Origin: Lingula anatina
Taxonomy: Eukaryota > Animalia > Brachiopoda
Direction of reading: 5' to 3'
Assembly: GCA_051362555.1 (NCBI GenBank)
Contig: CM120643.1
Span: 6,882,001 to 6,946,000, forward strand
Length of the DNA: 64,000 bases
Below the pieces are notes generated by a model. That model had not been told where the DNA came from and did not search any database. It saw nothing but the letters and a program-made list of their open reading frames with translations. Positions 31,872 through 62,600 of this stretch are shown here, piece by piece; the first letter of the stretch is position 1, and each line of letters opens with the position of its first letter. The position numbers and the translations under genes are program-made.

Positions 31872-31902
<31 letters not shown>

Positions 31903-37347: not shown

Positions 37348-37779
37348 GCTTTCTTCACCTCGAGTTTGTTTGATGAGCATGCGCACTTAATATTTCTCAG
37401 GTAGCTTCCGCATGGCGAATAGAGCCGAGATTTAATGACTGTACCCCCGCTGGGACGACGCTTGGGGATTCGTGTGAAAGGTGGAGAGACTATTAAAAGA
37501 TTAGTCGGTTTTTCTTTCATGTACGTCCGCCATATTTCAGCCCAGGGCCGGCTTTCACGAAACGTTTCGCAGGTTGCGCATTCGCTATGGTTTGCGCAAT
37601 TGCGCTAATTTTTTTTGCGTAGCTTTCTCGAAACAATTCGCAATTTTTTTCGCTGTTAGCGCACGACGTCGTGCCCGGAAGTAAATATTGTAATCTCAAA
37701 ACACTGCTCTTTGGGCCGCGGAGGCAAGAAATATAACAACAAATGCTCGTGCTCCGTGAACGTCTGCTCAGCTGACACA

Positions 37780-38484: not shown

Positions 38485-38526
<42 letters not shown>

Positions 38527-39822: not shown

Positions 39823-39879
39823 ATTTTTTTTTTTACCATTCACTTAGCAATTATAATTATAATTATGCAAAATCTTTGT

Positions 39880-40135
39880 ACTATTTACTTACTTGTTCAA
39901 CATTACTGTTTAACCATTTTACTGTTTTCTTAATTGTTCAACATTACTGTTTAACCATTTTACTGTTTACTTAATTATTCAACATTACTGTTAAACCATT
40001 GTACTGTTTACTCAATTGTTCACCTTTACTGTTAAACCATTTAACTATTTACTTAATTATTCAACATTACTGTTAAACCATTGTACTGTTTACTTACTTG
40101 TTCATCATTACTGTTAAACAATTGCACTATTTACA
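39880..40135. repeat. Minisatellite, ~40-bp unit, ~6 copies, between the 3' ends of the two E3 genes
   Basis: ttacttaattrttcaacattactgttwaaccattktactgt in tandem. Confidence 0.9.
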
Positions 40136-40655
40136 TATGAAATATTCAAATAAGCATTTACCATTATTGATCTCCATGTTAAAATGTAAAAATTAATTAT
40201 TTTTTTCAATTATTATTCTATATACAGTGAATGGTTCATGTGAAAAAGCCAACTTGAACATTATTTTCCCAGAACAACAATTGTATTAAATGCATTTGAA
40301 GGTTTCAATTATAAAATATGTAAATTTTACATGAAGATTGTTTTTTCATATGTTAATGCCAAATTTGAGCAACTACAATGCACAAATTTTTACATAAATA
40401 AAATTATAAAACCATATATTTTATTGTTCTTGTCCATATATAAATTACTGACAAGGCAAAAAAAGAAGAACAAATGCAAATACATTGATACATTTTAAAA
40501 ATGTTACAACAGCATTTGTCTTACAAAGTTGTGTGTAATAAAATTGACTACATTACATGCCGTGGGGAATCAATAAATAATAATTGACCAGTAGTGGGTA
40601 ATGCATAATTCTTAACTGTCCAAGAGAGGTATAAGGTTTCTGAATGGGATGAGGT

Positions 40656-42624
40656 TCAATTGTTGAAAACATTCCTGATGAGATATTCTCTGGTCTCGTG
40701 GCCAGTTCTGAGCATTGGTCCCACAAATGCATCATTGTTCACAATATCATTCCTGTCATCATCTGCATCATCTTCCACTGGTGGCATTGGGATGTTATAC
40801 ATTTGACAGAAATTATGAAGTATACAACACACCATAATTATTTTGCCAGCCCATTCAGGATTGTACATGAGAGTCCCTCCACTTCTATGAAGACACCTAA
40901 AGGAATTGGTGTTTGCAATAGGTGAAATTATAGCAATTATAATAAAGCATACAAAGGTGTTTCAAATTGCAACAAATTTGCTGGGCTTATTCCTTAATTT
41001 AAAAGTAATATTTTTATGTCATCAGAAGTATTCTATTTATTCTGCATTCTATTTTTTTTATTTAAATATTCTTAAATCTCACTGCACATTTTATTTTTGA
41101 AATAACCATCATATATGAAAGTATATGCTCCAACCATTAACAATAAAGGTTAAAAACAAACAATTTTTAAATATTTTAAATAACCAATTTTATTAAATAT
41201 TTAGTACCTGAAACGAGATTTTGTAACACCAAAACACTGTTCTATACAGCTTCTGGTCTTCATATGGGAAGCATTGTATCTCTCCTCTGCCCTACTTGCT
41301 GGGTTGCCCTTTGGTGTCATCAAAAAGGGAGATAGGGCATAGCCACTATCCCCCAGCAAATAGCCCTGCGGCATATCTCCACTTAACAGCTTTTCAAATA
41401 GCATGCTGTTGTTGAAAACAAATGAGTCATGGGCACTCCCTGGCCATCTTGCTACAACATTGGTAAATCTGAAATAATTGGAAAAAAAATCACAACACTG
41501 AAAAGTACTTGGTATGTGCTAATGGCATGACGTGATGAAATGCTAAATTAAATAAAAAATTAATTATTTTTATAACATCCATAAATCATATTGTATTGAT
41601 CAATTTCTCAGCCTACTGTAATAAAAACAAAATTAGTAGTTAATACCACTTTGTTCTTATACGTAATGATGGTACTGTAGTGGGGGATTTAGAGGGGGGC
41701 AGGGGTCTCCCCCCCCCCCCCCGGCCCCCTATTGAAATTAAAATTTTGACTAGCTGATTCATAGTTATAAATCATATGGCATCGTTTGGCATATGAAATA
41801 CCAAACATTTTATGGCCCCTTTACTGAGCCCCGAACAGCACGCCAAGTTGGGGGGGGGGGGGGGGGGGGGTAGGGGGGTCAGCTTTGCACCCGAGGACCT
41901 CCCTAAAAATAATCTACCCCTGCATCTAAATGTTCGAGAATAATATCTAACATTCTCCTTTATTTAGCATAATTAGTCATCGTCATTATAACTAAATAAA
42001 GTGATTGCGACAGTTGTGATTGCGATAGTAGCGTATGTGTAAAATGTAAACAATATAACGAAAGTAGCGCACTTTCCTTAGTGTAGAATCACACACGGCT
42101 TGTACATTCAGAGCATGATAGCCCTTTCGGCAAACATATAAATTTTCATCTCTATGTGGCGCTGCTATGGGAACTAATGTTCCGTCTATCGCCCCAATGA
42201 CATTTGGGAATCCGTCGATTAGGTGAAAGCCACCCTTCACGGCTCTGACCTCGGCTTGTGTTGTGGGGAATCTGATGGTGAGGGCAGGGTCTCTGCTCTC
42301 TAAGATGGCTCCCACCACATTGTGGACTGAACGGGACACAGAGGCAGCAGATATCCCTAGGCTGTCGCCTATCACAGCCTGAAAACTACCGGTCGCAAGC
42401 ACGCCAAGGCAGGCAAGAACTTGTGTGGTGGGGGAGAGTGCTTGGGACCTTGCTGTTTTACGCCGCAGCTGGCCTTCAATCTTCTCCGTCAGCAACCTAA
42501 TGCCCCTCTTCGACAGCCTGTACCTCCTCAGTACTCCCCTCTCTGTCTGCTCTTCTAAGACATCACGCCGCGGCATGTAAATCCGCCTACTTTCGTTTCG
42601 CACGACAAGAAAAGCTGCAGCCAT
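40656..42624 (-). CDS. HARBI1-like Harbinger transposase of E3, 3 exons, ~349 aa, intron-1 donor GA instead of GT
   Basis: Exons 42624-42077, 41468-41208, 40896-40656 (1050 nt). Motifs RRYRLS, GFPNVIGAIDGTLVPI, YVCRKGYHALNVQAVCD, RWPGSAHDS, LLGDSGY, TRSCIEQCFGVTKSRFRCL, CCILHN. The in-frame junction requires AG|gaaagt at 42076. Confidence 0.9.
41678..41922. mobile_element. YAGTGG-type MITE in intron 1 of the E3 transposase; related fragments at 19567, 55906, 59064, 61876
   Basis: Termini tagtgggggattta / taatctacccctg; internal ttgaaatta.aattttgactagctga.tcatagtt shared with 61970-62010 and, inverted, with 56060-56085. Confidence 0.75.
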
Positions 42625-42819
42625 TGCGCTAGGTGAACGCCAAGTTACGCATGCGCAAAGACTTAGCGACAGGGTCGGAGCTGTACCAAATATCTTGCGT
42701 AAATAGCGCATTATTTTGCGCAATATTACATTGCGAAACGTTCGTGAAAGGGTCTGTTCGCAAAAAAGGACTTTGCGCAATTGCGCAAACTGCGAAACGT
42801 TTCGTGAAAGCCGGCCCAG

Positions 42820-45800
42820 GAGCCACCGGCTCATTTGACGGTTATTTTGGAAAATATTAGATTTGGCCTCGTTTTTAAAACGTGGAGTGGTAACCCAAAG
42901 AAAATTTGGCGGGAGACGAAGGCATAGAGACAGGTAAGTTGTACATGTGTTTGTGCAATGAACAGTTGATTTAAATACTAATGCATTTGACAGGACAATA
43001 CAGTATATGCTTAAGTTACATTTTATACACCGAAGAAGTGTTCGTGTATCGATTTCACTGAGTATTCTCTAAAGTTACTGGCGAATAGCAAAATGGCGGC
43101 ACACAAAACGTCATTGTAAACATTGACTTTTGAACTGTGCCAAATGCAGCTTAAGGGTTTTTTTCTTTATCTGTTCCTGTTTTTTCATAGTTTGGCAATA
43201 TTTTTTGAACATCTAAAATTTTAAAGATGTGCGATGGCCTGTAATTTGTAGAATTTCAACATTTCCAACAAGCTGTATATTCACCGTGCCGGGTACCTAT
43301 CATTTAGTTGATCGAGTGATGGCAGTGGCGTTCTGGTCTCATGTATGGAATGAATGTCACCGTATAAGTGAAATGTTTGAATCTTGGCTTCTCATGCAAT
43401 TTCTTCTTGTTTTAATGTGAAAAAGATGAAGTGGATTGCGAAATGACATTGTCATCCAACCTGCATACACGTATACGTATATATGCATATGGTGGTGTAC
43501 CAGTACTTGTTTGCAAAGCGGTGGGGAGGGGGGGGGTGCATTGGTACCAGTAGTTGTGAAAGATTCAGTATTGTACACTAACCATAGGCATGTTTTAAAA
43601 TATATGAATCTTAAATTATGTCTTTAAACATGTTTTCTTTTTTGCTGGGGGCGGGGGGTTAAATGTATTGTGTTAATTTTTTTAGAAAAAAACATGTAAA
43701 CACAAAATAAGTTTTATTGCATTGGTTGGGGGTTTTGAGGAGAAGAATGTCATAAAAATGCAAGTTTAAAAAAGGTGAATAATATATGTATGTGTGTATG
43801 TACATTAAAGGAAACAGGCTCTTCAATGATGAGGGCATATGATAGTGATGTGGTGCTCTGACTTGCATGTGTTTTCTAATATTTTCATGCCTTGAATCAA
43901 ATTGGGTTTTTAATTGATGATGGGTGTGCAACTTTGCCCAAAGTTCAGTTTCAAATGATTTTTGTTTATAACTACTATTATGAATTAAGTATAAATAGTG
44001 CAGTTTAAGGTAAAGATTGATTGTAAATACAGTGCTGTTTAAGATTGATTGTTACAGTTTACCTATTACAAAGATTGCAATAAATTATTATTAATTTCAG
44101 TGTGTATGTGTGTGAGCAATTGATAAATGTAGTTAGAATTTTTTAATGATATTCTATTGAAAACTCTATTATTTTTTCTAGGCTTGAATAGCATGAATGG
44201 GACCAGGATTATTCCTTTTGCCATGCCTTGACCTGCAATTATCATAACAAAAGCACCCATCATTTCCAAATGCTGTGTGGCAATGAACACCACAACCTCT
44301 GGGATACTTCTAAGAGATGCAAAAATATATTTTTGAGCTATGCTGTTGCTTATATTAATAGTTATTGGTTATCAGTATATAGAAATGCAGTTTGTGAAAT
44401 CATTTTAGGTTTTAACCACATGAAGTTAGTTAAAAGTGTATGTGCAACTAAGTTAACAATACATTGTTATTTTTACTGTGCAGGTTTTTTTTATATATGT
44501 GTAGCTTACAGATAATATCAACTTATCAGAATACATGTAAAACAAGTTTATTCAAATGCAAATATGGATTGGTACCTGGTATCAGTGAAAGAAAATTAAT
44601 ATGACAACTTTGGGAAAATTTATGAAATTATATTATTTGTAAAAATTGAACCGGTCCACTTTGTAAAGGGGAATTGTGTGTTAGATGGTTAAATATATAT
44701 AAATATATACCAATCAAGTAAGGTAGCATTAAATTATCACCTACTGGGTAATTAATGTACAATGTAATGTAAAATAACAATTTTGCAACGTACATGTCTC
44801 ACTGGTAAAATATTTCAGACTAGTTGAATTTTATGTAAAATTAAAATATAACAATGTGAATAAATATAAATTGTCTTTCATTTGTTATTTTTCATATTGA
44901 ATGAAAGGAATACCCTCATCAGTTGGCCTCAGGTAATAAAACGGTTTATTTACAATGAAAAAAATGTTAAAATTCATTTGTATTAGCACCGTGGTAAGTG
45001 CCAAGAAAAAAATTATTACTCAGTTGCTCTATATAAGTAATACTGTGTGAAGGAAAAACTAAAACGAGACTGAAGTCCATGAGGAAGCACTAAGTCAAAG
45101 CGAGGCTTATATGCGGATATTGTAAGTGAGCGTTTTCAGGCTGACATGGCCGTGAATTGATTTGTGCCATTCACAGCTTAAGGCAAAGTTCTTTACATGC
45201 TTACATTGACAGAAAGCTGAATAAATTTGCCACAACTTACTGGTAATTAAAAGTTGCGCGGAGGCCTCTATAGATACAAAGATCACAGTTAAAGATGAAC
45301 TTCCGTTATAGCTTTCGTAAATTTTCGATTTCAAACTGTTTTTTTAACACTAAATAGGCTCTAGATCAACTCGTGGTGCATCTCACATTATTCGAAATTT
45401 ATTTCTCAATATGTCAATGTATGTAATGTGTCCCTGAGTACGTTCATAGCCGAGATATTGCATCGTTTCTGACACCCTATAAATCTCTAAAACTTTAGCC
45501 GATTCAAAAATGTAAGACTTCCGGTTTGTTTAAAAGCCACCTAGCGGCAGACCAGTGGCTCCCGGGCTGTTTAGTTCGTGGATTTGTAGAGCTATGGCTC
45601 AACTCGTTGACTGCATTCTCAACGAATTGAGCCAGGCTTTACAAATCCTGAGAATGAATCGACTATCTACGGAGATAATATCACCAGAGATATTCACGGA
45701 TATGTTCGGAGCCGAGATTTAATTACTGTACTCCGCAGGGACGACGTGTGGGGAGGTGTGTGAGAGGCGGAGAGACTATTAAAAGATTAGGCGGTTTTTC

Positions 45801-45886
45801 TTTCATGTACGTCCGCTATTTTTAGTTCTCAGTATTTGTAAAGTCTGGCTCAATTCGTTGAGAATGCGGCCGTTGTGAATGCGGTC
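42820..45886. mobile_element. Probable non-autonomous Harbinger-related element (E2); right TIR ends 45886, left TIR remnant at 37538-37545 + 42820-42829
   Basis: Removing the MITE restores ...tttagttcgtggatttgtagagctatggctcaactcgttgtgaatgcggtc, a relative of the MITE TIR. The adjacent 18 bp (45552-45569) match the E3 empty site in inverted orientation (16/18). No ORF recognised inside. Confidence 0.55.
45609..45871. mobile_element. 263-bp Harbinger-type MITE derived from the E1 family
   Basis: 46-bp TIRs (45609-45654, 45826-45871; 4 mismatches), 3-bp TSD GTT (45606-45608 / 45872-45874); interior matches E1 37198-37251 (inverted) and 37422-37530 (direct). Confidence 0.88.
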
Positions 45887-46492
45887 ATACTCACACATAG
45901 TAGGCCTACCCTACCATACCATTATGGGGATCCCACCCATCCAGCAAGCTCTCTTTTTAAATTCTTACCCAGTAATAGTAGACTGTTGACTTTAAAGGAC
46001 AGTAAACGGTTTTAAGTAGTTTTTTTTCTCTACAGTATTAAATATTAATTCCACTTTTAGGCTTAATTCATAAATATTTTAATGGCCAGTGTTTTAGTTT
46101 AGAATATCGGCACATGAATCAATAAAATACCAAACAACTTTCATGGAAAATAAACTGAAATTAAATCTGGAGACTCCTTTATCTATTAGCATTTCGAATT
46201 TACATCTCGGCACGTTCGTCTTCATCACCATCATACTTCCGTCGCAGTCCGAAGCGCGAAATTCAAACAGTGCATATCAAAACCGTAAATAGGAGTCCTT
46301 ACGTCGCGCTAGAGGACGGGTTTTATTAAGGCATTTTTGTTAGCGGTATTGTCATTAATTTAGAGAATCGTGAACAAATCTGGATGACTCTATCTATAAA
46401 AAAGCAATTGTTACCTAAAAATCATATACAAGAAAAAATAATGAAAAAAACGAATGCAGAATAATTTTTAAATTAAAAATGGAATCTGAATA

Positions 46493-46655
46493 ACAAATAC
46501 AACTTCAAGCAAATGAAATTGAATATAGAAAATCAAACTCATGATTTTGACTTATGTATTACATTACAATTTATTTTAAAACAATATCGGTACCTTGTCA
46601 ATGCATGGAAGGACTGCGTGATAACGGCATACACCCTCCCCTACACATACACTAA

Positions 46656-46691
<36 letters not shown>

Positions 46692-48047
46692 GCGCGATAA
46701 TGGGGGGGGGGGGGGGGAGCCAATTAAATCAAATGCCTTTTCCCCGTTGCCAACGCTCTCAAATCAGGTCTTTTATCTAAAAAATGTTTTATTGTATAAA
46801 ATACAACGTATATAATTCCACAGACTTCGGTCGAATGATGTAGCTGTGGGCATGAACCCAAAATATGATATAGCACTATCAACAATGAAATGTATTTTCT
46901 TAAAAAAAGAACTGTCACATTAGGATTAACCCAGCCCCCCCCCCCCCCCCCACCACCACCACCACTACCACCACCAATACGCCCCCTTTCTATTGATACT
47001 ATACAAACTCAGCGTGTGTAGGAGTGTGAAAACTATGTGAAAGTAGGTCAAAAGTTCACGGATAGGATATGCCATGTAAAAGGTTCTTAGGGGAGTTTGG
47101 TCATCTCCTTTTGCTTTTCTTTTTTTTTCTGCCAATTTTGAGAAGAAATGTCAGTGTCTTTCATTCCACTTAGTAAATATAAATGCAGATAAGCCAATTT
47201 TCTTTCCTTTATTATTCGTCAGATGTAATAAAATACAACATTTCCTTAAAAACCTTTACCCCCTTTTGTGAATGCAATGCGTCGTCTGCAGAGCTCAGCG
47301 TCTGCCACCACGCTGGATGATTCTCGCTTCCCGGGAGCTGAACAGTTAATGCGGTCTGAAAATTTTTAGGGAGAGTCAGATGAAATAGAGAGGGACCGTG
47401 GCATTTACAAAGTTTTACATGGTGAAGCTGGAGTTTTGGGCTAGTTTTACTCGTTTATTTAAAAATTCGCAATATACTCTATCTTTCAGTAACTATATGA
47501 TACCAAAATATTTTTCTGGCATCTTGATACATTTTCCCCTTCTGCCTCCCCCTAAAATGGTCCACACTAAAAAATCAATAATCGTATGGCAATTTTATAC
47601 AGGCAATTGACCTACTTTTATACCCATGCAGCTATTGTCGAGTTTTATGGCTATGGAGTGAAAACGTGATACACGTCTGTGATATAAAAGTTATTTCTAA
47701 TTACATTATTTACAAACTGTGCGTGTGGATCAAAAACGGTCCGATTCTTTAGCAAAAGGGTAAAATCACTTTTTGAAAACAATGAAAAAATTGGAGATGG
47801 GTCAAATCAGAAAAAAAAATGCATTTTTTCTCTTATATGCAAATTAGGTCCCCTGAAGTAATATATGACTGGCCGGAAGTGATGTTCACATCAGAGATTT
47901 GTAATGGTGATTATCTTAATGGTGATTAAAAAAATCTTACCAAAGTTTTCAGCTGTCGTCTGGAGAGAAAGAAATTTTCTGCAATAACACAATCATTCCA
48001 CGAGCGAAGAATATATATAGTGCACCTGCCTCAGAGATGAGCTGCAG
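46493..48047. repeat. Duplicated non-coding block, copy 2
   Basis: Colinear with 15495-17205, same orientation. Confidence 0.92.
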
Positions 48048-49132
48048 TACAGCAAGTTGAAGGAGCTTTATGACAGATCTTTTATATTTTTTTTTACCAG
48101 TACCAACTCCATTTAAAATGGCTTTTGTAAATTATATATGAGTTACCATTGAGAAAGGAAAATGCCTTCGATAATTGTTACTAAGGTCAGATGAAAATAC
48201 CAGTACGACTTTTGATTTCCAGTTAATGTGAACAGTGATCTTGATCACTGATGTAAACATGTTAATGACATAATTTTTTTTTTAATTGAAATGCAATAAA
48301 GTACTGTATAGGACTAGAAATTGTATTGTTGTAATAAAAAATGCAGATGCTTTACAGTGGGCAACAGAAGGGATTGGGTTTTGATTATACTGTATGATAT
48401 AAAATATCTGATGAAGAAATGTTAAGATAGAACTTTCTGAATGAATGTGTAAGTTGATAATAACATAATAAGGGAAAAGCATAGAATATGTTTTAGTCTG
48501 TTTATTAAATTGTTTTACCAAGTGGTTTCATCTAGGAATTCAATAGCTTGGCTCCTTTTTTAAAAAAAGATTGGTTTTTATCAAATTCAAAATATCTTAA
48601 ACCTAAACAAGCATAATTTGCCCTGATTATCCATGAAACCATCTTCTTTTTCAAACTAGTATTCAATATTTTTAAATATTAAAAAAAAACTTGAACACAA
48701 GGGTGAGTAAAATGAAAAGGAAATTCAGAAAATACACAAGGTAGATTTATTATCACAGATCAATGAAGTTATCTAAAAATGTCTATTTAAAAGTAAATGA
48801 GATCATTAATGGCAGTATTTATTTAAAAAAAAAAGGAACGAGATTCTGGTCACGTTTTTTTTTTTTTTTGCACTGTTGCAATGTATTAAATAGTAAGGCA
48901 GTGTATATGTCTATATAAAAACACTTCTGATCCATAAGAAATTTAAAAGGACAAAGTTCAATACAAAATATTTTCCTGATTTTTAATATTTTTTCTTTAA
49001 ATCATAAAGATAGCATAGTTCTGCAATGGGGGTATGAGGCTTCTATGAGTCTGTTTGATAAAAGTTCTTGCACTATTTTTGGAATTATATCACTTAGTAA
49101 AAGGTTCCACTGGCACCAGAGCACTGAGTTTT

Positions 49133-50011
49133 TTAAAACTTAACAAGCTGTGTCTTCTCCTGCCTGTGAGCATCCTCTCCAGCCTCATTTGATGAGAAAA
49201 GTAGGCAGTGAAGATACACACAAACTGCCTTCAGTGTCTGGAACACAAACAAGTCCTCCACCAGTGCCACTCCTACCAGAGCAGCCCAGTTGTACACAGC
49301 GCTGTCACTCAGCTCTCCGCCATACACAGTGCTGAGATATACTGCCACAGCCATGGAGACGCTCAGCAAAATGAATGCTGGATAGATCAAAAAGTGGGGC
49401 AACTTTCCGTCCTGCTTTCTGTTGACCATCATCTCCAGTGACTTCAGCTCAGTGTATGGCACCTCATCTGATGGTTCTGGAACATTTTGTGTGGAAATGA
49501 ATTATTGCCAAAAGTATGTGGAAGTTTAACTAAAAAATGATGCCGGCTAATATTACCCCTGTTTAACATCACAATCACTGTTTTAATTATAATAAGGGCA
49601 AGGAAGCTTATGTTGGAATCAATGCTCTAAATATCTTCAAAATGTAAGCTGAAGCTGGATAACATGAAAATGCATTATCCTTTTTTTATATATTCATTCT
49701 TTTTTAAAATAATTTACTGAAATGACAGACATTGATGATACCAAAATGGACAATTACCTTCCCAAATATTAACTGCTACATCATGTGCATTGCCTTTCCT
49801 CTTGCTGTTGTCTAAAATTGCATTTAACAAGGGATATGTAAAAGGAAATATAAAAAGTTATTTGTTTGAGCCATATATTGCTACTGTTGAACATTAATTA
49901 GGAAACAGTAAATGAAAATTTTAGGATGTTACATCTGTTCTACGCTATCAAAAAGGATTAAAAAACATCATCATATAGACATGTCTACAGCATAATATAA
50001 TGGCATACTAT

Positions 50012-50067
<56 letters not shown>

Positions 50068-53000
50068 TACCTGGGATGAGAAAACTTGGGTTGAAGTGAG
50101 CAATGAGACTGTAAAAAGATGCAACATCTGCATTTCTGAAGCTGGAAATCTTCCCAGCATGGGATTTTGGGATTTCTGCCTGCATCTCCTTTTGCATATT
50201 TGAGTTTAGCCTAGGGTTGTTAGGAGGAGGAGCATATGTGTAGCTGGGTGTTTTCTGAAATATTGAAAATCGTCCAATAATTGATTCTGCTGACTGGTAA
50301 ATATAGTCAAAATATTCCACAGATGGGGACATTTATTCTGGTGGTGGTTTGATGTTGCACAATAATACCTCAATATGAGTATAATGTCTTTTTATGTTCT
50401 GGTATATACATGTACATATGTGCTTGTAAGTCAAGCCAAATATGTTGTCAAACATAACAGAAATGATACAAGTGTCTGTTTTTAATTACAAGAAGGCAAT
50501 ACATGTATGTCTCAAAAGCAATCCATGATATCTGAACAGGCACATAAATGCATGCACAAACTAAAAATAGAAAAAAGAGTAATAAATACCCCTTTCTTGC
50601 TGTCCACATCTCCCATGGCAACCATATCTTCCTTGACAACCAAATTTTCCTTGGCAACCATTTCTTCAATCTGTGCCATAGCCTGGTGTTCAACAGTTGC
50701 ATGTGCCAAATCATAGCCCTTCTCAAAGTCATAAACCACCTGTTTCATCATGGTCTCCACACTTCCATGCACAACTTGTTGGAACCCATCACTGATTGTG
50801 CAACTGAAAAAAATATAAATCTTTCTTCAATCAAGAAATATAGTAAAAAAAATTAGTATTATTGGTAGAATAACACTCTGACTATAATTACTAACTCCAT
50901 TTACACACTCAGAACATGTGTCACATAAACAAGAAAATGTGAAATCATTATAATACTATTAATAGTCTACAAAATGAAACAAGTGTCCAGACCAATACAA
51001 GTTGTCAGAATCAGTCATGGCTATGAGCAAGACCTGTGGTCAACTCCCAAGCTAAAGACAAATTTAATTTTATTCTTATCTAACATAACCGTGAAATGAG
51101 GAGTCTTAAAATGAACACACAAAATAATTACATGTCATCATACTGGGGCTCATCTTCCAGGTTCTGCAGCACAGTGTCACCAGTGTCCTCTCTGTCATAG
51201 CACCTGATATTGTACATTGCTACATCATATATGCCATTCACAAGGAATGTTCCTATATTGACAAGGAGGCTGGAGAGGAAGATACCTCTATCAAGCTGAA
51301 TGACACCAACAGCACTGAGAAGGGTACTGGTAAGCAGCATGTTTGCAAACATGTAGTTCAAGGTGCTGTTAAACCACAGAAGGACAGGGGCCAGCTTCAA
51401 GCTGGAACAGCGTGTCCATCCATGACAGGACCACAAATACAGAAGGCAAGTTTGCAGTCCAAACCTGAAAAATATTTTATAAATTAAAAAATTTATATCA
51501 AATATCAAAGTATGTACATTTTACATGAAAATTGCATTCCATGTTGAAGAAAAACTGAATACTGCATTAAGAAATCAGAATATGTATCATTATTATTATT
51601 ATTATCTTTCATATTTTATTTGTCTATAACTTGTAAAAGCAGACATTTCAAAGTACATCATATGCTTATTCATCAATTGTGAGAAAGTCTCTAACTTACC
51701 TGGAGTTCTTACAAGACTCCAAAGTGGTGTATCCCACTGTGAGGCATCCATTCCTGCTGAAGTGGGATTCACAGCCAGATACTGTATCATATACTGTTAT
51801 ATCCAGCACATTCCTTCAATGAAAGAAAAATGATAATAAAAATTCACTCAAATTTCTTTATACAACACATTTAACAATCAATATTTCAAATAAATCTGGG
51901 CTTCCATCCAACTAAACTGAGAAGCTAGCTAACAGTTTTTTTTTTCAAAAATACATAAGAGTATGTTAAACTGGCATTGAACTCCATCTGAATGTGTAAA
52001 AATATCTACTATAAAAAAATAACATAACAATATGAATATAACTTAAACTACAGATGCATCCAAGGTATTCATGACACAAAACATATTTCAGAACAATGAC
52101 AAAAATAATCTTCATTTGATTTGCAGAACTTTCTTTATACAGGTCCAATAGTGTAAATATGTTTGTGATGTTCCAGTTTGTATTTTTAAAATTACCATTG
52201 AGCTCCTGGTCTATCACTGATGTACACCACAACCTTCTTCAGTTTTCCCAGGGACTCTGAGTTTACAATAAAAAAGATTCACTATAATGATTAAATGTTA
52301 GTGTGTTGTTTTAGAGTACAACATGCATCAAATACAACAGAGTTGTAGTTTAATTCTAAAAATAAATTTAGTTAATGCATAACAATACCATAAGAACCTT
52401 GGTGTTTAACAAATCACCAAGAATTCTTGCACTAACTCTCTCTGAACATGCTCTGCACTTAACTTTATGATAAAAAGTCAACATAACTGAGTTAACATTA
52501 TACTTTAAGTAATAGTAATCATATATAATATAGCCACTGACTGAGATGAACAGCAAACTGCGACCTGATGTTCCAGTTAAGACTGTACATGCTGAATTGA
52601 ATGTAATAAAGTAAATGGCAGTCAGCTGCTAATAATACTGTTGAATCAATATTTGCAGGAAAAGAAATTTATATGTGCTCCAAAATATTCAAGATACTCA
52701 CCTTTTGTATACAAAAGAAACCATTTCTTCTGTCCTACCCCAAGGAAATTGTGCTTCCTCCCATGTTCATTCAGATTATATTCAGGAGATACCCCCTGGT
52801 CTCCTATCAACTGCAATCTGACTTTGGGTGTCTTTACTGCTACAAAACAACATATTTCTATAGTTTGGAAAAAATTCAGTTAAACAACAACTTTAATAAT
52901 TATATACAACTGTAAGACTCTTCATTGGCCTATATCTCTATTTATATTTTTGTCATTTCAGTATTAAAATATATTAAAATATATTATTATTATTATTATT

Positions 53001-53894
53001 CACACAATAATAACTAGTTTAAGCTTTTCAACAAGGATCAGAATCAATAACTTGAAAGATCTTAGCATCACTTTTACCTCTTTTCAGCCCATTTTGAACT
53101 GCTACCATGTATCTATAGTGATGTTCACCAGAATATTTGGGAACAACTATGATACCACTTTGCTTTCTCTGAAATGATAATGACCACTATAATTATAAGG
53201 CAAAGGAAAAGAAAGGAAGGGAAAGGAAAGAAATGTAAAAATAAAACAATAATGTTTTGAAAATGATTACAGCAGAAACTGTTTTTATACTTTCATGCAG
53301 ACTAAATTTAAAATGTAAGTGCAACACAAAATTTTGTTTCACTCTCAGTACCTTCTTCCAATTGAACCAAATGATATAACTCGTGCTGAGTGACATAATG
53401 CCCAAAAACGCAAAGATGAATGCAAATGTGAGATTCTGGTACAGCATGATCTTTTGTGGAGCTTTTTTCAAGGCAAAAGCTAGCAAAGAAAAGAAAGGAT
53501 GTAGCTTAAAAATGGAAAGCAAGGAAGCAACCAAGGGCAAAGAGAAGTATAGGAAGCACGATTAATTTAAATGAATATAAAAAAATAGAGAAAGTAGGGT
53601 CTAATGAATTAGTCTCAAACAAAACAAAACAATAACACAAAGTAAGATGCTGAATGCATGGAACTTTGACAAACCAAATTAAAAAAAAAAACAAAAAAAC
53701 ATCACAATTTGTGCTAAATGAATGGTGAAAAAACATTGGTTCCCCGTGAGTTGTTTTAATGTATATCGCCTGCTTTGTAAACAAAAAAGGTGCAAAAGAG
53801 TTACATAAGTCTAAAGTTTGATGATATACTTACCTCCATGGAGAGGTTGCATGAGTAGCAACATCAACAAAACTTTGATCTTCAAGTTCTTCAT
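49133..53894 (-). CDS. Miniature polycystin-1-like (PKD1 family) PLAT-domain membrane protein, 11 coding exons, ~573 aa
   Basis: Exons 53894-53834, 53479-53352, 53168-53078, 52839-52702, 52256-52196, 51813-51700, 51464-51132, 50803-50590, 50254-50071, 49811-49758, 49476-49133; all GT-AG, phases match, 1722 nt open. Signal-like MKNLKIKVLLMLLLMQPLHG, TM1, PLAT (YRYMVAVQNGLKR..KVRLQLIGDQGVS..WFLLYTKESLGKLKKVVV..WNVLDITVYD), TM2-3, and PKD1-type TM4-5 (LPHFLIYPAFIL..VYGGEL..W..LFVFQTLK). Confidence 0.85.
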
Positions 53895-54029
53895 ACTGGC
53901 AAATTTTTTATATGTTCTCCCTGTATCAAATAATATGAAGCCGTGTACAACAAACACGTATATTTAAAAAATAAGTCGCGATTCAGCGAATAAACGAGAA
54001 ATTATCGATATTTCAAACAATTTGGACGG

Positions 54030-54130
54030 AGTTGACTTTGACTTCCGCCCAAATCTCACAAATGTCTGTTGCTAATTGACGTCACAGACACAATCAGCTC
54101 ACGTGACCATTGTGCTGGGATGTGCGGTTG
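54030..54130 (-). promoter_or_regulatory. Likely promoter of the PKD1-like gene
   Basis: CpG-retaining segment directly upstream of the first coding exon with X-box-like GTTGCTAATTGAC (54068-54080), palindromic CRE TGACGTCA (54077-54084) and E-box TCACGTGAC (54099-54107). Confidence 0.6.
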
Positions 54131-54327
54131 TGATGTTAAAACAGCCAAATCGATAATAATAGTTATAAATAACATTCACCTTAAGGTTCACTGCACAGCC
54201 TGATTGGGGCTTTAATAAATTACTTTAAAGAGGATAAGTATGGTTTATGTTATCTTTCGTATTTGTTTGAATATATGCATATATATCTACTTAAATAGAA
54301 GACAGTGGAAGACTGGCTGCACTAATA

Positions 54328-55896
54328 GGGGAGACCGGGGCTAGTTGGACCCCGGGGTAAGTTGGCCCCCCGTCAATTTATGAAAAAGTAACTACGAGGT
54401 AAAAAAATTGGTCACATACTCTTGTAAAGTGACCGTAGCCTACAATACTAAGGAAGTGTCGGACGTTAATAAGTTTTACTTAAGCGGTGAGTCCAAATAA
54501 ACGATTTTTGCACCCAAAAGTAATTTTGTTTATCAGAATTAAAAATCTATTTTCATAGGCTTTTGATCGAATATAATATATGTATAGGGCATCAAACTGA
54601 AGCTCATTGTTTCAAGTTTCACAGAGATATATCATCGTCGCTCATTCTAGCATCATAAATGGTTGTCATGCTTTAAAATAAAAAAAGGTGCACCCGGGGC
54701 TAGTTGGCTCCCTAGAATCGGGGCAAGTTGGACCCTCATATTACCCACAATCCTTTGCGTGCAACGCTGTTTGAAATAAACAAGGTGGTGAAATTGACAA
54801 AGCTTGCCGGTGTTTACCGTCTGATTGATTTCATGTAATTGGCTCTCTGGTGTCTTTTCGATAATTTATATTAGAAATGTTCTGTTGATTGTATGTATTA
54901 AAAAGTAAATCCATTGGACTTTCCTTAGAAAAATATTTATTTTGTCTTAATTCATTTTTAGGGGATTCCCTTTGTATTTATAGTGTTATATGTGGCCCCA
55001 AGGGGATTTTCCACCCCTCCCTAGCTAGAGACCATTGTTGAAACAAACTCAATGGTTTAAAACTGAATTTGTTACTTTCTTTTAAAACGAAAATTTATTA
55101 TTCGTTTTCATTCATTAAAAACCTGCTTTATACCATTATTAATTTATTCTTAATTAAAACAAAACAAATTTTATTGATAGATATTTTGGTTCTTGCAGCA
55201 CATACCCCCCCCCCCCCCCCTACAACGTGACGTACGGAAACCTCAATAAATCTGCCTCATTTGAACTATTTATTCATCAAAGACTCAAAAATCAATTTAA
55301 TAAATAAAAAATGTATAAAAATGTATTTCGAGGCGTTTACAAGGGATATATACTTCATTTTCGTATAGAGGGGCCAACTTGCCCCGACATTACTGTCCTT
55401 AGGGCCATCTTGCCCCGTTGCGGGGCAAGTTGGCCCCCTTGACGTCAACTGCGTCTTTTGACAAATTGTGAGCCATCTGGCATTATATTTGAAAAATAAT
55501 GACGTTGTATACGTAGCTTAATTAATGGGCCTTACTTTGAAACCGGTTTTGTTACCCAAAAATCAATTTAATAAATAAAAAATGTATAAAAATGTATTTC
55601 GAGGCGTTTACAAGGGATATATACTTCATTTTCGTATAGAGGGGCCAACTTGCCCCGACATTACTGTCCTTAGGGCCATCTTGCCCCGTTGCGGGGCAAG
55701 TTGGCCCCCTTGACGTCAACTGCGTCTTTTGACAAATTGTGAGCCATCTGGCATTATATTTGAAAAATAATGACGTTGTATACGTAGCTTAATTAATGGG
55801 CCTTACTTTGAAACCGGTTTTGTTACTATAACCCATTCCTAGTTGGCTCTACAAGGCCAAAAGTGTCTAACTGGGCCAACTAGCCCCGGTCTCCCC
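54328..55896. mobile_element. Non-autonomous TA-TSD DNA transposon (Tc1/mariner-pogo-like)
   Basis: 21-bp perfect TIRs GGGGAGACCGGGGCTAGTTGG, TA on both sides (54326-54327, 55897-55898), internal ggggcaagttgg.ccc repeats. Confidence 0.9.
55286..55826. repeat. Near-identical 270-bp tandem duplication inside the TA-TSD element
   Basis: 55286-55555 repeats at 55557-55826. Confidence 0.95.
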
Positions 55897-56732
55897 TATC
55901 ATTAGCAGGGGCGGATCCAGGATTATTTAAAGAGGGTGTCCGCGGATGCGAAGTTGACCCCCACCCCCCCTTTGGCGTGGGTTCGGGGGCTGCTGAAGAT
56001 CCCCGAAAAAATGGTAGCTTTTGAGGGCGGACGGTGTCATCTGGTACTGATTAAAATTATGATTCAGCTAGTCAAAATTCTTATTTCAGGAGGGGATCAT
56101 TGGTGCGATTTTTTACAGAAATCGAAAAGGGGGGGGGGGGGGGTAGGAGCCCCCTGAATAAAGGTTAGACATGAATCTCAGCAATATTATTATTACTTAA
56201 ATACACATCTGAATCCTGCACATGTGCACACACACACACGCGTGCACTGGTATATGCACACTATATTGCAGAGCATAATTTAGCCTTTGACACAAGAGCT
56301 CCGAGAACTGGAGTAGTTTTCAATGGATGTCAACGTAAGCGACGCAGATGTGTCAACCTCATCCACCAGACCCAAAGGCGTTCCAAAATGAGCCCAACAC
56401 ACTTAAAAACATGTCATACAAAGTTTAAATACCTCTACTGAGTATGTAAAATTCAACAAGTATGTAAAAGTCAAGATTTCGTCGCTGTCAGTCACAAGCA
56501 GGTACCTCTGTCTAAACGGCCTTGACCTATTATCATATTATTTCACTAGAGTCTATGCCAATCTAAGTGTGCATATATTTAATTTTATTTCTTCACCATG
56601 ATTTTCTGTCGCAAAAGAAGTCCTAAATAAATAATTAACCACACTAGAATGACTTTATTTTATAGTTTGATATGAGTGTGGTTTGTGTGACTGCATTGAG
56701 GTGGGTAACAGTTAAGACAATTCCTTTTTGAA

Positions 56733-57110
56733 CGGTGACAAGTGGGTCGAGTCCATTCGATTTGAGGAGTTACAGTTAGGACGAGTCCATTCTATTTGAG
56801 GGGTAACAGGTAGGGCGAGTCTATTCCATTTGAGGGGTTGCAGGTGGGGCGAGTCCATTCCATCTGAGGGGTGACAGGTGGGCCAAGTCCATTCTTTTTG
56901 AGGGGTGGCAGGTTGGGTGAGTCCATTTCATCTGAGGGGTGACAGGTGAGGCGAGTCCATTCCATTTGAGGGGTGGCAGGTGAGGCGAGTCCATTCCATC
57001 TGAAGGGGTGACAGGAGGGGCGAGTTCATTTCATCTGAGGGGTGACAGGTGGGGCGATTCCATTCTTTTTGAGGGGTGACAGGTGAGGCGTGTTCGTCCG
57101 ATTTGAGGAG
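56733..57110. repeat. G-rich minisatellite, 34-bp unit, ~11 copies
   Basis: tgaggggtgacaggtggggcgagtccattccatt variants in tandem. Confidence 0.95.
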
Positions 57111-59096
57111 CGCATGCACGTGAAATCACCACAAAATTACATTATAATGTCCGTGGAATTAACTTTATAAAATATATTTTTTTAAATATTGTGTTAGCAA
57201 AGTTTTGGGGGGATATAAACTTGTATCATGCAGAATTAATCATTAAATTATTGGTCTTAAAAATTTGCTTTTCCACAATTTCATATAAATATAACCTTTT
57301 TGTCGGTACATTTGTGACTGTGTGGAAATAAATCTACGTCACAAAATTAAATTAAGGGATCAATATATTTAAAACATTTTTTTTTTTGAAGAAGCAAACT
57401 GTTGCCATTTCAAGTGTGTCTCTCAACTTTCTCATTTTTTCCGTTTAAATTTTAAATTGAAGTATTTATATGACAAGAAGATCGTGAAATTTGAACCAAT
57501 TTTCTGCAACAATAACCAGAATCCTTCAAAAATGGTCCCATATTAAAATTGAGAGAATGATATCTGGGAGGACGTACTCATTTATTCCAAGAGATATAAA
57601 AAACTGTCTAACTACAGAATAAAATACAGAATAGCTTTTCAAAAAGCAAAATCGTAAATTCACACATTGTATTTATAAATGTGGGCTGTTGGAAAATCTT
57701 GAACGTGTATTCTTAAAATGCTCAAACTCAATAATTTACAAAATACTAGGAATATTTACAAACTTAAAAAAAAATCTTTTGGTTTTAGATATCTTCTGTT
57801 ACTGCAGAAATCAACAATCCCAAACACAATATTTACAGATCAGTTTTAGCGGATTTAATTCGAAAGTGCTCAAACAGTTTTTATACCTTTATTATTACCA
57901 CTATTATCTTATCGACATTATTTCATATCAAAGTAAAAGAAACAAGCAATGACAAACTTATCTATTCAGCTTTTATTAAAATGCATGAATTTGAGTTTGG
58001 TTCCAGAAAGTGAATGAAAAACTTGGTTGCTAGCAGGCGGGTGTTGTGCAGTACTCAGTATCTCAGCTGACTTCTGAAATGAGAAAGTAATGTAAACAAT
58101 ATTTGACTAAACGGGCAGACTTGGAAAATACAACAATGCATTTTACATCAAAATGAAGAGGGCGCTGACTTGTCCGATGTTCAGGCTCAGATAGCACCCC
58201 TCAAAAAACCAATCTACATCGTGTTGACCTTACGCCAAAATTAAGATCTGAGATTATTAATAAAGATATTTGAGATATCTTGCTTTGTAAAAATAAACAT
58301 TGAAAACAATCCTTTAATTCGTGGAGGTTATTACTAAGGACGTTAATTTATTTTACCTACTATTCAATGTTGTAATATCGAAAATCGCTATGCAACACGC
58401 GTTTGTGCGTCATATTTTGACCATAAAATTGATGTACACGTTGATAGGGCACACTTGTCTTTGGACCAAAAGCTCAGAACTGTGGCAAGTACAGTATTAT
58501 CATCTAAATTAGTCCGTGATTTTTGTGGTAATATTCCCATTTACTTTTAAGCTAGCTTATATTCTGAGTGACATAAAAGAAACGACAGGCAAAACATAAC
58601 AAAGAATCGCAACATAAATCCTTTTCGTAATTTTCCTTGCATTCTTTCACGCTTTGTATATCTACTGACTAAGGTTACTAAGAAAAAATGATACTTACGG
58701 AACATGCATTTGTGTCTTCCCCTCATAAAAGTTCGACCTTGCAACTGTACCACACATGCTGTTGCGTCTTCACCCTGATGTGTCCTACTGCCTAGTGAGC
58801 ATTGGGGAAGACAGCTCGCACTATGATGAGCAACTTATTGTTATGCAAATTACAGACAGGTATGGCCCATTTTAGGTGAGGGACTGTGGCTGGAACTGTT
58901 CACGAATGTTCACTGCCAAAATCATGTAGATGAAGATTTGACTGAGGTCCACTTGTTGTTAAAATACACCATTTTATTCCACAAATATAGCGCATGCGTC
59001 TTTCATCATGCGGTTTGATTCAACACTTCCACAAAACTCAACGCCAGGGAAAGAGAATATTGATAGTGGCGGATTTAGAGGGGGCCAGGGAGGTCG

Positions 59097-59332
59097 TGAC
59101 CCCCTCTTCGGTTTCTGAAAAAATTACACTAATATTCCCCTCTTGTTTTGATTTTTTTCAATTGAGGCTTACTGTCTGGTAACTCTCAGATTTAGGTTGA
59201 TGATTTTGAGTTTCTATGACCCCCTCTTCGGTTTCTGAAAAAAATTACACTAATATTCCCCTCTTGTTTTGATTTTTTTCAATTGAGGCTTACTGTCTGG
59301 TAACTCTCAGATTTAGGTTGATGATTTTGAGT
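59097..59332. repeat. ~120-bp tandem duplication spanning a MITE fragment junction
   Basis: tgaccccctcttcggtttctg...gatgattttgagt at 59097-59212 and 59217-59332. Confidence 0.9.
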
Positions 59333-59627
59333 AACAGCAAGCTGACTTCAAGTAGTAGACCTAGTAGTTAAAATAGAATAAAGAAAAAATATAAGGTCAC
59401 AAATCGCAAAGAGATATTATAGGGAAAGATGATGACGAATTTTCCGTTTTGAAAAAGAAATTAAAAATAGGGCCTAATGCTATCGGCGATTAAGGACAAC
59501 AGTACCAAAAATGCGATCAAATTCCATTTCCGGCTATATTTTGCTTGTTATACCTTTAAAAATTAATAACTACAGGGTTACTACTTAATACTTTGTTGCT
59601 TTTGCATGGGGGCACGTACGCGCGCTC

Positions 59628-59661
<34 letters not shown>

Positions 59662-62600
59662 TTAACGTTAGAACGTGATATTAGACTACAATGTGATTTA
59701 TTTGACTTTCATTTGAAAAAATGATGTCCTTTTTGAATGTGGTAGGCATCATGTTTGTAGAATGTGGCGTCTCTTACAATGACCCGTTCGAAAGAAAGTT
59801 GAAATAACAAGATTTTGCAAATTAGATAGATAATATATAATAATTTATTAAACCAATAAAATACAAATGTATAACATCTGGAATTTTTTGCCCTGTAATA
59901 GCACCATTATTGAATAAAACTTTTTAAATGTACTAGAATGAAATTACGTATTAGTGTGAAAAAGAATTACTGCTGAAGGATAAAAGCTAGATAAAAATCA
60001 CTTACTACCCTCAAAAACTAAAAGCATCGAGATACTGGGTAAAAATTTGAATAGAATTTGAGCTGGATCAGTCATGATGGAAGCTGTTTTATTCTTAACC
60101 CTATCGAGATAAAATGAATGAATGGAAGTATTGGCAAGTGCGACCGCCCATCACATAATCCCAGCAGTTGAGTTAAAACTGGCGGCGAATAAACATGAGT
60201 AAACTGAAAAAGAAAAAAGTCTTTTCCATTCATCAGTACCTCTGGAGATGTCGCGTTGTCTTTTGGCGTAGTCACTGTATCTATTACACCTATACTAACT
60301 TATCAGTGTAATGATTGACGTGTGTTTATATAACTGTCAATTTCATTCAGGGTAGATAAAGTGAGCTGATAACTTGGTTTTAATCTCTTTTTTAAACAGC
60401 TCTCAGAAGTTTATCATTTTTCTCCAATGAACAAAGCTTAAGCTAAGTTATTTTCACCTCACCTGTGATAAAATAGATCGCACTACATGTAGTGTGTTTC
60501 ACCAGCCATAGATAATATACATATTTTAAACTACGCAAATAAAGAGTTCCTTTGTTTTCTCCCACTCAAATTTATACTTCTGAGGGCCATGACTCTCTTC
60601 GACAGCTTTAGTTATCATCTGAGTGTTAATTGAGATTGGCATTTGTTTATGGTAAAATTTGATTTGTTATGTAAATGGTATTTTTCTCTAAGTGGCCTTT
60701 GATCCTCTTTTTTTCTGACACTCGCCGCACATTTGTAAAAAAACATCTGGAAAAACTTAAAATAGACGTCTTCGTTACCCTGGCCAGTGGTGGAATCACG
60801 AACGCAGGTTTTGATAATTATACAATATATGGTGACTTGTGCCCCCCCCCCCCCCACTCCATTCAAAGTTGGGGTTTGGAAATATATGATAGTCAACATC
60901 AATTTCATACACCACTGTTAACGAACTTTAAATATTGAAGACATTTTTCGGCGTTTTCTTCTGTTAAATATTTGTGAGAGTGGGTCAAAATCGTTTTTCA
61001 AGTGGTCGCAGGCAGTGTAACAGGGACACTAGGTAGAGCTACACGAAGTGGGATTGTAGTAATTTTTCTGTGAGCCGTCGTCCTCTACAGCTGGGCATGA
61101 CGTACCGTCTGGCCACACGGGGCGCTAGTAGTCTTATCTGGTACAAAAATACTGAAAAGTGATTTTTTAAAAATACTATATGTAAGGGCCCCTGATATTA
61201 GAGGGTAGGCACGCCACTGCTCGTCATCTGTTAAAGGAGAAACTAAAATGATTTTCACTATCAATAAGTACTAGTGTGATAGGGACCATTCCCAGACCCT
61301 ATCGTACTAACTGTGGATCGATCTATCTCCGAGTGGATTCTCGCTAAATTACAGTTAACTTAAGCGGCTTAGATGTCTGTCACGCCTACTGAAACTGCTA
61401 GGGGGTAATTATCGTTAAGCAGCTTCTGTAGGCCTATCGTTCGCATCCACGTACTCAGTGGGAGATCAAATGCCTTGAACATGTTCTAAACAATTCCACG
61501 CGCTGCTTATATCTTCATTTTATTACGCAGGAATCAGGGTGTTGGGAGATCGATTATAGAAATAAGAACGGTTGAGAGAACAGAAAATATTTGATCAATC
61601 TTTAACTAGAGAGGGGATTTAAATGATACTATTAGGCTCCATAGAGGCGTTCAAAAATTGTGCTGCTGTCGGTATTTCACGAAGTCAGCAAGGGGTATTG
61701 GACATAGTTTTCACTCAGCAATAACCACGCCTCGGTGTATGGGAGTTGTAGATCCCACACTGAAAATGCCAATAAAAAATGAAAATTTACCCCCAAAAAT
61801 TCATTACAAAAAAAAAAAAAAAAAAAGAAAAAAAAAGAAATAAAATAAAAATAATCCAATGAGACTAGTATTCTGCAGTGGTGGATTTGGGGGGGGGGGG
61901 GGGGGGGGTCAGGAGGTCCTGACCCCCCTCCTTCGGTTTCTGAAAAATATATCACAACCAATATTCCCCTCTTGAAATTAGAATTTTGACTAGCTGAATC
62001 ATAGTTCTAAACCATACCAAGTGGTGCCATTCACCCTCTAAAATACCAATTTTTTTCTGGCCCTTTACCACACGCCACTGGGGGGTTGGGGGGGGAAGGG
62101 GGGTAAATGGTCAGCTTCACATCCGCGGACACCCCCCCCCCCAGTGGCAGTAATAGGGTTTTTGTCAATTTTAATGTAATATTACATAATGCTTAATCAC
62201 CACCAATTTTAATCATGCACAGCAGGTAACATAGATATTCAGGAAATGTGACAAGCAAAAGGTCTTCAGGAAGATGGAAGTTGAAGATCACACCTTAAAT
62301 TAGTGAAAAATGAAAATTTCACAAAAATTGTCCAACTTTATGAAGAATGTTTAATTTAGTAATATACATCATTCCTTTAGTTTGAAGAGAATAGTAGGTC
62401 AAATTGTTTTTCCTCAAAGGGTGATATCTGCAGACATGAACCTAGGTTTCAAAAAAAAAAAAATTAATAATAATAAAAAAATAAAATAAAAAAAAAACCT
62501 CTGAACATTTATCATGGGACCCTACACCTAACCAGCCAGGGGTCCGGGGGCCACCTTAGGAATTGAATTAAAAAACACAGAAATTCCGCGGTTCCATGGA

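What the first reader, a model, noticed from the sequence alone, without database searches (positions are those of the whole stretch)
49133..53894. A 'half-polycystin': intact gene for signal peptide + TM1-PLAT-TM2-5 only
Seen: eleven phase-compatible GT-AG exons give an uninterrupted ~573-aa frame in a region where nearly everything else is decayed. Only ~15 residues separate the signal-like N-terminus from TM1, and the stop comes ~20 residues after TM5. Established: PKD1-family proteins have a large REJ/GAIN-GPS ectodomain and 11 TMs, the last six forming the channel half that assembles with PKD2/TRPP. Inference: this is a stand-alone version of the 5-TM/PLAT module with no sensor and no pore, possibly a split subunit, trafficking adaptor or dominant-negative regulator of polycystin channels. 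I do not know of a described family with this architecture.
Basis: partly seen in the sequence, partly recalled or inferred. Interest (0 to 1): 0.85.

Follow-up and report, generated by a model that had tools for sequence, protein, structure and literature searches.

The report
Channel-less polycystin gene family in brachiopod
This is a real, spliced gene, likely from the lamp shell Lingula, that keeps only the middle of a polycystin-1-like protein (no sensor, no pore) and has seven look-alike copies, but the RNA seen lacks the first membrane helix and shows no sign of strong constraint, so it is likely a fast-changing, partly decaying offshoot rather than a proven new channel regulator.

Summary
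The frame is real: 11 GT-AG exons give 573 aa without a stop, with a PLAT fold and PKD1-like look-alikes. The only relatives found are seven 'uncharacterized' Lingula anatina proteins. The channel half is truly missing: reads run past the stop into a 3' UTR, and 4 of 5 copies that reach the last exon stop at the same residue. No ectodomain exon was found. The TM1 exon has no reads in 8 of 8 runs (4 informative), and both long annotated copies skip it and start at another ATG, giving PLAT plus four helices without signal peptide. Read differences in the 3' half are 3 silent to 18 replacement, and 5 of 7 annotated copies are partial. Best reading: an old channel-less PKD1-like offshoot, recently multiplied, fast-evolving and partly decaying; this copy is intact. 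Channel-less PKD1-like genes are in print (fish pkd1l3); this architecture was not found in my searches. The scan noted two other channel-less polycystin-like genes (without PLAT) in other genomes.

The parts
56433..56500 (-). Putative non-coding upstream exon 0; donor GT follows 56433; 5' end not known; in-frame stop 18 codons before the donor and no ATG after it
   Evidence: A 30-nt loose end of 4 reads at the exon 8 acceptor fits best here, starting at the donor; score 35 against a maximum of 32 in 60 shuffles. Reads are from a paralogue-like sequence; a join to exon 1 was not seen.
54326..55898 (.). Non-autonomous DNA transposon with perfect 23-bp terminal inverted repeats, between exon 0 and exon 1
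   Evidence: reads from other copies break off at 54325
53921..54160 (-). Unspliced 5' leader / promoter-like CpG-rich stretch; in-frame stop 22 codons before the ATG
   Evidence: Read depth in bins 53975-54221 (X1) and 53976-54162 (X3); CpG o/e rises from 0-0.34 in the gene body to 0.8-1.0 from 53750
53834..53920 (-). Exon 1. ATG 53894 opens the signal-peptide-like frame; a second ATG at 53839, in another frame, starts the 512-aa form when exon 1 joins exon 3
   Evidence: paralogues P0002 and P0006 start at the second ATG
53352..53479 (-). Exon 2: end of signal-like peptide, about 12-residue outside stub, TM1 followed by a basic cluster; intact splice sites, no reads
   Evidence: zero depth
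51700..53168 (-). Exons 3-6: PLAT/LH2 domain (about residues 64-200)
   Evidence: Pfam PLAT E 4.5e-4, 21.3 bits, under the 23-bit cut-off, on paralogue P0002; Foldseek and VIA top hits all PLAT proteins, Z 9.3, 101 residues, rmsd 3.4; exon 3-4 joint in 6 reads
51132..51464 (-). Exon 7: TM2 and TM3 region, the least variable part among copies
   Evidence: hydropathy; 7 variable positions of 85
49758..50803 (-). Exons 8-10: long cytosolic loop; shorter than in P0002/P0006 by in-frame deletions (34 codons in exon 9; about 30 around exon 10)
   Evidence: joints; long form seen as loose ends at 50590
49133..49476 (-). Exon 11 coding part: TM4, TM5, 21-residue tail, stop
   Evidence: same stop position in 4 of 5 paralogues that reach this exon
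48740..49132 (-). 3' UTR continuous with exon 11; AATAAA at 48823 and 48751
   Evidence: read depth; hexamers

Best explanation
A spliced, weakly transcribed gene with seven annotated look-alike loci in Lingula encodes only the PLAT domain and the first membrane helices of a PKD1-like protein; it is likely an old channel-less offshoot now turning over by gene birth and death, and is predicted to work, where it works, as a PLAT-bearing membrane scaffold and not as a channel subunit. Steps: (shown) the unit ends after TM5 and has no coding exon seen upstream; (inferred) an internal piece of a PKD1-like gene gained its own 5' end long ago, since no close longer parent was found and the sequence has drifted below Pfam and PDB detection while keeping frame and splice sites; (shown) copies are now 85-96% alike and several are partial; (inferred) two products are possible with the same topology: exon 2 in gives signal peptide + TM1 + PLAT + TM2-5, exon 2 out gives PLAT at a cytosolic N-terminus + TM2-5 from a second ATG that lies behind three upstream ATGs; the sampled RNA fits the second; (from established knowledge) PLAT binds phosphatidylserine, PI4P and beta-arrestin and steers PC1 trafficking, whereas assembly with TRPP needs helices 6-11, so the product would tether PLAT to a membrane and compete for or recruit PLAT partners without forming a pore.
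For: Intact 573-aa frame and splice sites. Shared stop in 4 of 5 copies and reads through the stop. No close longer relative among proteins of 199-2000 aa or 1011-2885 aa (weak by the tool's own warning). No PDB sequence hit to PKD1 chains. All indels between the window and the intact copies keep the frame, and 47-52 replacements separate the window from P0002/P0006 with no stop, where about 3 are expected if neutral (P 0.04-0.06; biased because only annotated proteins are seen). PLAT + TM2-3 differ less than loop + TM4-5 (Fisher P 0.013 and 2e-4). Birth and death: 5 of 7 annotated copies partial, P0007 ends in the shifted frame of exon 8. Exon 2 skipping: zero reads (P about 0.001-0.03 if always included, assuming 5-7 fragments on exon 3 inferred from bin depth) and two RefSeq models.
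Against: 3 silent to 18 replacement read differences: no sign of purifying selection in residues 258-555. Expression is low (0.2-3.4 reads per million for the whole family). Many reads come from paralogues, so expression of this very copy is not shown. No protein evidence. No orthologue outside Lingula was found, and the deep HMMER search never ran, so age is inferred, not measured. Exons 5 and 6 are also thinly covered, so patchy depth alone lowers the weight of the exon 2 gap. The scaffold role is borrowed from mammalian PC1 and the PLAT here is very divergent.
Confidence: 0.5

Rival explanations
1. Transcribed pseudogene cluster: the family (or an unseen divergent full-length parent) once worked, but the present copies are neutral segmental duplicates in repeat-rich DNA and this copy is intact by luck and youth.
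For: 3 silent of 21 differences fits dN/dS 1 (P 0.13-0.32); 5 of 7 annotated copies partial; low expression; in the exon 2-less RNA the first three ATGs open a 34-codon upstream frame that ends in exon 3; transposon-rich setting; parents longer than 2885 aa were not searched.
Against: Three copies keep the frame from PLAT to the stop with only in-frame indels; uneven conservation along the protein; exon 2 keeps splice sites and GC3 0.56; read differences come only from the variable 3' half.
Confidence: 0.3
2. Split polycystin: this gene is the N-terminal half and a separate TOP + six-helix gene supplies the channel half, the two assembling in the membrane.
For: The end falls right at the TM5-S1 boundary, where PC1 is also cut by proteases (PMC9672506, passage), and the last six helices of PKD1L3 assemble with TRPP3 without the first five (PMC12799467, section 80).
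Against: No channel exon detected in 88 downstream frames (30000-49130) by Pfam (weak, the gene's own exons also fail Pfam); strong divergence of the helices; no sensor domain would be restored by such a pairing. The genome could not be searched.
Confidence: 0.07
3. Dominant-negative or decoy regulator of PKD1/PKD2 channels.
For: Keeps PLAT, which controls PC1 trafficking (PMC9672506, passage); multicopy and variable.
Against: Lacks helices 6-11, TOP and the C-terminal tail through which PKD1 proteins join TRPP subunits (PMC12799467, section 80; PMC1934368); low expression.
Confidence: 0.06
4. A fragment of a longer polycystin gene whose ectodomain or channel exons lie outside the window.
For: A good acceptor at 53921 in open phase; only 10 kb upstream is visible; an acceptor-like AG inside exon 0 would leave a short open exon.
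Against: Reads cross 53921 unspliced and run through the stop; the only upstream exon hinted at carries an in-frame stop; 0 of 7 annotated copies extend either way; no REJ/GPS/channel Pfam hit in 48 upstream and 88 downstream frames.
Confidence: 0.05

Closest known systems
PKD1-like proteins (PKD1L2/PKD1L3 type, polycystin-1 family)
   Same: PLAT after the first helix, then four more helices with a long loop between 3 and 4; ESM Atlas best feature hit 'PKD1-like 2' 0.92 (212 of 256 shared) and best structure hit 'PKD1-like 3' TM 0.48 over residues 4-562 of P0002; the PLAT-less copy P0001 also scores 0.90 with a PKD1L2 cluster.
   Different: No REJ, GAIN/GPS, TOP, channel helices or C-terminal tail; far more divergent than usual (PLAT under the Pfam cut-off, no PDB sequence hit); multicopy; TM1 exon apparently skipped.
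Partial pkd1l3 of ray-finned fishes (England et al. 2017, PMC5318412; passages read)
   Same: [quoted passage not shown]
   Different: Those keep a GPS motif (zebrafish also a lectin domain), are single syntenic loci; helix number and expression were not seen in the passages read.
Sea-urchin SpREJ proteins (Gunaratne et al. 2007, PMC1934368; parts 1-2 of 4 read)
   Same: PKD1-family members with reduced membrane parts (0, 1, 2 or 6 predicted helices) that are transcribed; shows that loss of the channel half recurs in marine invertebrates.
   Different: All keep a large REJ ectodomain, which defines them; this gene has none.
GPS-cleaved C-terminal fragment of PC1 (PMC9672506; passages read)
   Same: After signal cleavage the exon 2 form would also start with a short outside stub before TM1.
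   Different: The PC1 stalk acts on the TOP domain, which is absent here; the stub is basic and shows no stalk likeness that I could test.

Membership tests
PKD1-like (polycystin-1) family | PLAT/LH2 domain | tested here: met
   Pfam E 4.5e-4 but under cut-off; fold hits all PLAT proteins, Z 9.3 on a low-confidence model of paralogue P0002
PKD1-like (polycystin-1) family | PLAT directly after a first membrane helix | tested here: inconclusive
   Met in the DNA model; exon 2 has no reads and is absent from 7 of 7 annotated copies
PKD1-like (polycystin-1) family | Helices 2-5 homologous to those of PKD1 proteins | tested here: inconclusive
   Atlas features 0.92 and 0.90, structure TM 0.48 under the tool's bar; no PDB sequence hit; AlphaFold models too poor; motif likeness is recalled, not tested
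PKD1-like (polycystin-1) family | 11 helices with TOP and cation-channel domain (helices 6-11) | tested here: not met
   Stop 21 residues after TM5, read through into 3' UTR, shared by 4 of 5 copies
PKD1-like (polycystin-1) family | Large ectodomain with REJ and GAIN/GPS | tested here: not met
   In-frame stops upstream in both 5' forms; no Pfam hit in 48 upstream frames; only 10 kb upstream visible
PKD1-like (polycystin-1) family | 1:3 assembly with TRPP/PKD2 subunits | not tested
   No Lingula PKD2 sequence was in hand; the interface helices are absent
SpREJ subfamily | [quoted passage not shown] | tested here: not met
   No room for it in a 573-aa frame; no Pfam hit
Transcribed pseudogene | Neutral evolution (dN/dS near 1) | tested here: inconclusive
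   3 silent of 21 in the 3' half fits neutrality or positive selection; PLAT and TM2-3 less variable; no genomic DNA of paralogues
Transcribed pseudogene | Disabled reading frame in this copy | tested here: not met
   Frame and splice sites intact

The most novel reading that the evidence does not exclude
A working, lineage-specific family of sensor-less, pore-less polycystins under diversifying selection (TM4 changes at 11 of 19 residues against P0002), with a one-exon switch: keeping exon 2 makes a signal-peptide five-helix protein, skipping it moves the start codon to another frame and makes a four-helix protein of the same topology, both holding PLAT at the membrane. It would show that the first five helices of polycystin-1 have a job apart from the channel.
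Probability: 0.25. Interest if true: 0.75.

Novelty: new variant of a known kind. Interest (0 to 1): 0.45.

Why it matters
What the first five helices and PLAT of polycystin-1 do apart from the channel half is an open question (own knowledge; solved PKD1L3 complexes leave them out, PMC12799467 section 80). A natural gene made of just this part would be a ready test object. Its worth depends on whether the protein is made and constrained, which is open; if the copies are neutral it is a brachiopod parallel of the fading fish pkd1l3.

Tried and rejected
No genome is held for the window, so paralogue DNA, dN/dS and a complementary channel-only gene could not be sought. The all-lengths HMMER search never ran (queue full, 9 tries), so distant orthologues and parents over 2885 aa are untested. 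Run search: no RNA holder listed; raw-read runs of the same species label were laid instead. Word search near length found only the three Lingula clusters among 7992 candidates scored; longer lengths none of 6105. Metagenome contigs: 459 pattern matches, none a relative. Pfam on 9 single exons: no polycystin family. PDB sequence searches: nothing significant. AlphaFold: mean pLDDT 30 and 36; only the PLAT strands were usable; PKD1 chains were not among the fold rows shown. Rfam on 44000-64000: 0. A short GPS-like motif scan (motif recalled) on 345 minus-strand frames: 0. My first exon 2 border (53460) was wrong and was replaced by the stronger in-phase acceptor at 53479. No complex prediction was sent: no partner sequence was in hand. 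Paper searches for this architecture or for Lingula polycystins gave no description of it; the library lacks most subscription papers, and supplements (for example the expanded-family tables of the Lingula genome paper PMC4595640) were not read.
Full report
Observation. The minus strand holds eleven exons from 53894 to 49133 with ten GT-AG introns of 183-445 nt; joined, they give 573 aa with no internal stop. Coding GC is 0.44 and GC3 0.50 against 0.28 in introns. Hydropathy shows a signal-like N-terminus (basic start, 8-9 hydrophobic residues, small residues before position 24; judged by simple rules, no SignalP), a helix at about 37-59 followed by five basic residues, two helices at about 235-281 and two at about 489-548, then a 21-residue tail.

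Identity. The last exon finds three clusters, all Lingula anatina 'uncharacterized' proteins, 84-94% identical; the clusters hold seven loci. The window's own protein was not among them, so the window is likely from another Lingula assembly or a close relative (inference); it could be an allele of one of the seven, though 4-6% protein difference to the nearest is above the 1.6% heterozygosity reported (PMC4595640, passage). P0002 has a weak PLAT match; a low-confidence model of it matches only PLAT proteins. The ESM Atlas places P0002, and the PLAT-less P0001, next to PKD1-like clusters. No PKD1 chain in PDB is reached by sequence, so the family is far diverged.

The 3' end is real. In stranded runs all reads on the gene fit minus-strand RNA and lie on exons. 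Joints were listed for introns 3, 8 and 10 (3 of 10; listing needs 3 reads). Reads cover 49079, 54 nt past the stop, and go on to about 48740, near two AATAAA. No joint or loose end leaves exon 11. Four of the five annotated copies that reach this exon stop at the same residue; the fifth stops 14 residues earlier.

The 5' end has no ectodomain in sight. Reads lie upstream of the 53921 acceptor, where an in-frame stop stands 22 codons before the ATG. A loose end of four reads at the exon 8 acceptor fits a stretch at 56433, exactly at a GT donor, 2.5 kb upstream beyond a transposon; that putative exon has an in-frame stop 18 codons before the donor and no ATG. The fit is modest (35 against a shuffled maximum of 32) and only 30 nt were visible. 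Pfam finds no polycystin piece in 48 upstream and 88 downstream frames of 40 aa or more, a weak negative because the gene's own single exons fail too.

Exon 2 (TM1) has zero depth in 8 of 8 runs; four of them have reads on exon 3 (739 nt laid) and three on exon 1. If exon 2 were always kept, the chance of this is about 0.001-0.03 for 5-7 fragments, a number I inferred from bin depths. The two 577-aa RefSeq models begin with two codons from the end of exon 1, in another frame, joined to exon 3; in the window this form gives 512 aa from ATG 53839, behind three ATGs that open a 34-codon frame ending in exon 3. No exon 1-3 joint was listed in the reads, and many reads are from paralogues (they carry the long exon 9), so either the exon is skipped or the expressed copies have lost it. 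Exons 5 and 6 are also thin. Exon 2 of this copy keeps a strong acceptor, a weaker donor and GC3 0.56, so the five-helix form is likely the ancestral one and may be used in tissues not sampled.

Selection. Of 21 coding differences listed between reads and window (all in residues 258-555; one search hid 21 further rows, place unknown), 3 are silent and 18 replace a residue; 4.5-5.8 silent are expected if neutral; dN/dS of 0.3 or less is rejected (P under 0.002), 0.5 is unlikely (P 0.005-0.03), 1 fits. Five of seven annotated copies are partial; P0007 ends in the shifted frame of exon 8. On the other side, the window, P0002 and P0006 keep the frame from PLAT to the stop across 47-52 replacements (about 3 stops expected if neutral) and across several indels, all in frame, though only annotated proteins are seen. 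PLAT and TM2-3 vary less than loop and TM4-5; TM4 varies most. No close longer parent was found up to 2885 aa. Family expression is 0.2-3.4 reads per million in the four runs.

Mechanism. PKD1 proteins join TRPP subunits 1:3 through helices 6-11 and TOP (PMC12799467, section 80 read); none of this is present, so the product cannot be a pore subunit in the known way. PLAT binds phosphatidylserine, PI4P and beta-arrestin and steers PC1 trafficking (PMC9672506, passage). Both possible products would place PLAT and the long loop in the cytosol. The most likely working mode is therefore a PLAT-bearing membrane scaffold or trafficking adaptor (inferred, untested). I give 0.5 to an old functional offshoot in birth-and-death turnover, 0.3 to a neutral transcribed pseudogene cluster, and little to split-subunit, dominant-negative or longer-gene readings.

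Comparison and novelty. It fails two defining features of the PKD1 family (ectodomain, channel half), so it is filed as PKD1-derived, not as a member. Channel-less PKD1-like loci are known in ray-finned fishes, one model being 397 aa of GPS + PLAT (PMC5318412, passages), and sea-urchin REJ proteins have 0-11 helices (PMC1934368, parts 1-2 of 4). A planarian survey found the full domain set in its PKD1-like genes (bioRxiv 10.1101/2024.07.17.603829, passages). Eight searches (listings only, apart from the papers named) gave no account of a form lacking both ends or of this Lingula family. Two earlier notes of this scan concern channel-less polycystin-like receptors without PLAT in other genomes (not checked). 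Verdict: new variant of a known kind, interest 0.45.

Noticed in passing
window 54326-55898: Non-autonomous DNA transposon with perfect 23-bp terminal inverted repeats and an exact 271-bp internal tandem duplication (55283-55824), 400 bp upstream of exon 1; other copies are transcribed.
   Followed up: partly
window 49330-49400 (TM4): TM4 is the most variable part among copies (11 changes in residues 494-512 against P0002, mostly hydrophobic swaps), while the TM2-3 exon is nearly fixed.
   Followed up: partly
window 50803 and 56433: Four reads join a sequence like the upstream non-coding exon straight to exon 8, skipping exons 1-7; either a paralogue with a deletion or long-range skipping.
   Followed up: partly
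window 34666-35929 and 40659-43068 (-): Two broken Harbinger/PIF-type transposase genes (Pfam DDE_Tnp_4); a short opposite-strand frame at 37660-37947 looks, from recall, like the Myb/SANT partner of such elements (not tested).
   Followed up: partly
window 388-729, 1385-1927, 20422-20778 (+): Remnants of a retroelement integrase (rve), a hAT transposase and a Tc1-type DDE transposase.
   Followed up: partly
window 7855-8981, 23822-29144, 29918-30384, 39829-40156, 56695-57137: Tandem arrays with units of about 146, 195/980 (nested), 62, 41 and 34 bp.
   Followed up: no
window 16392-16909 and 47241-47758: Two copies, about 89% alike, of a dispersed repeat; the second lies 1.4 kb downstream of the gene's stop.
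   Followed up: no
ESM Atlas hits of P0002: Two clusters with 513-aa representatives named PKD1-like (70 and 96 members; chordates, rotifers) list PLAT alone as common family; they may be fragments or further channel-less forms.
   Followed up: no
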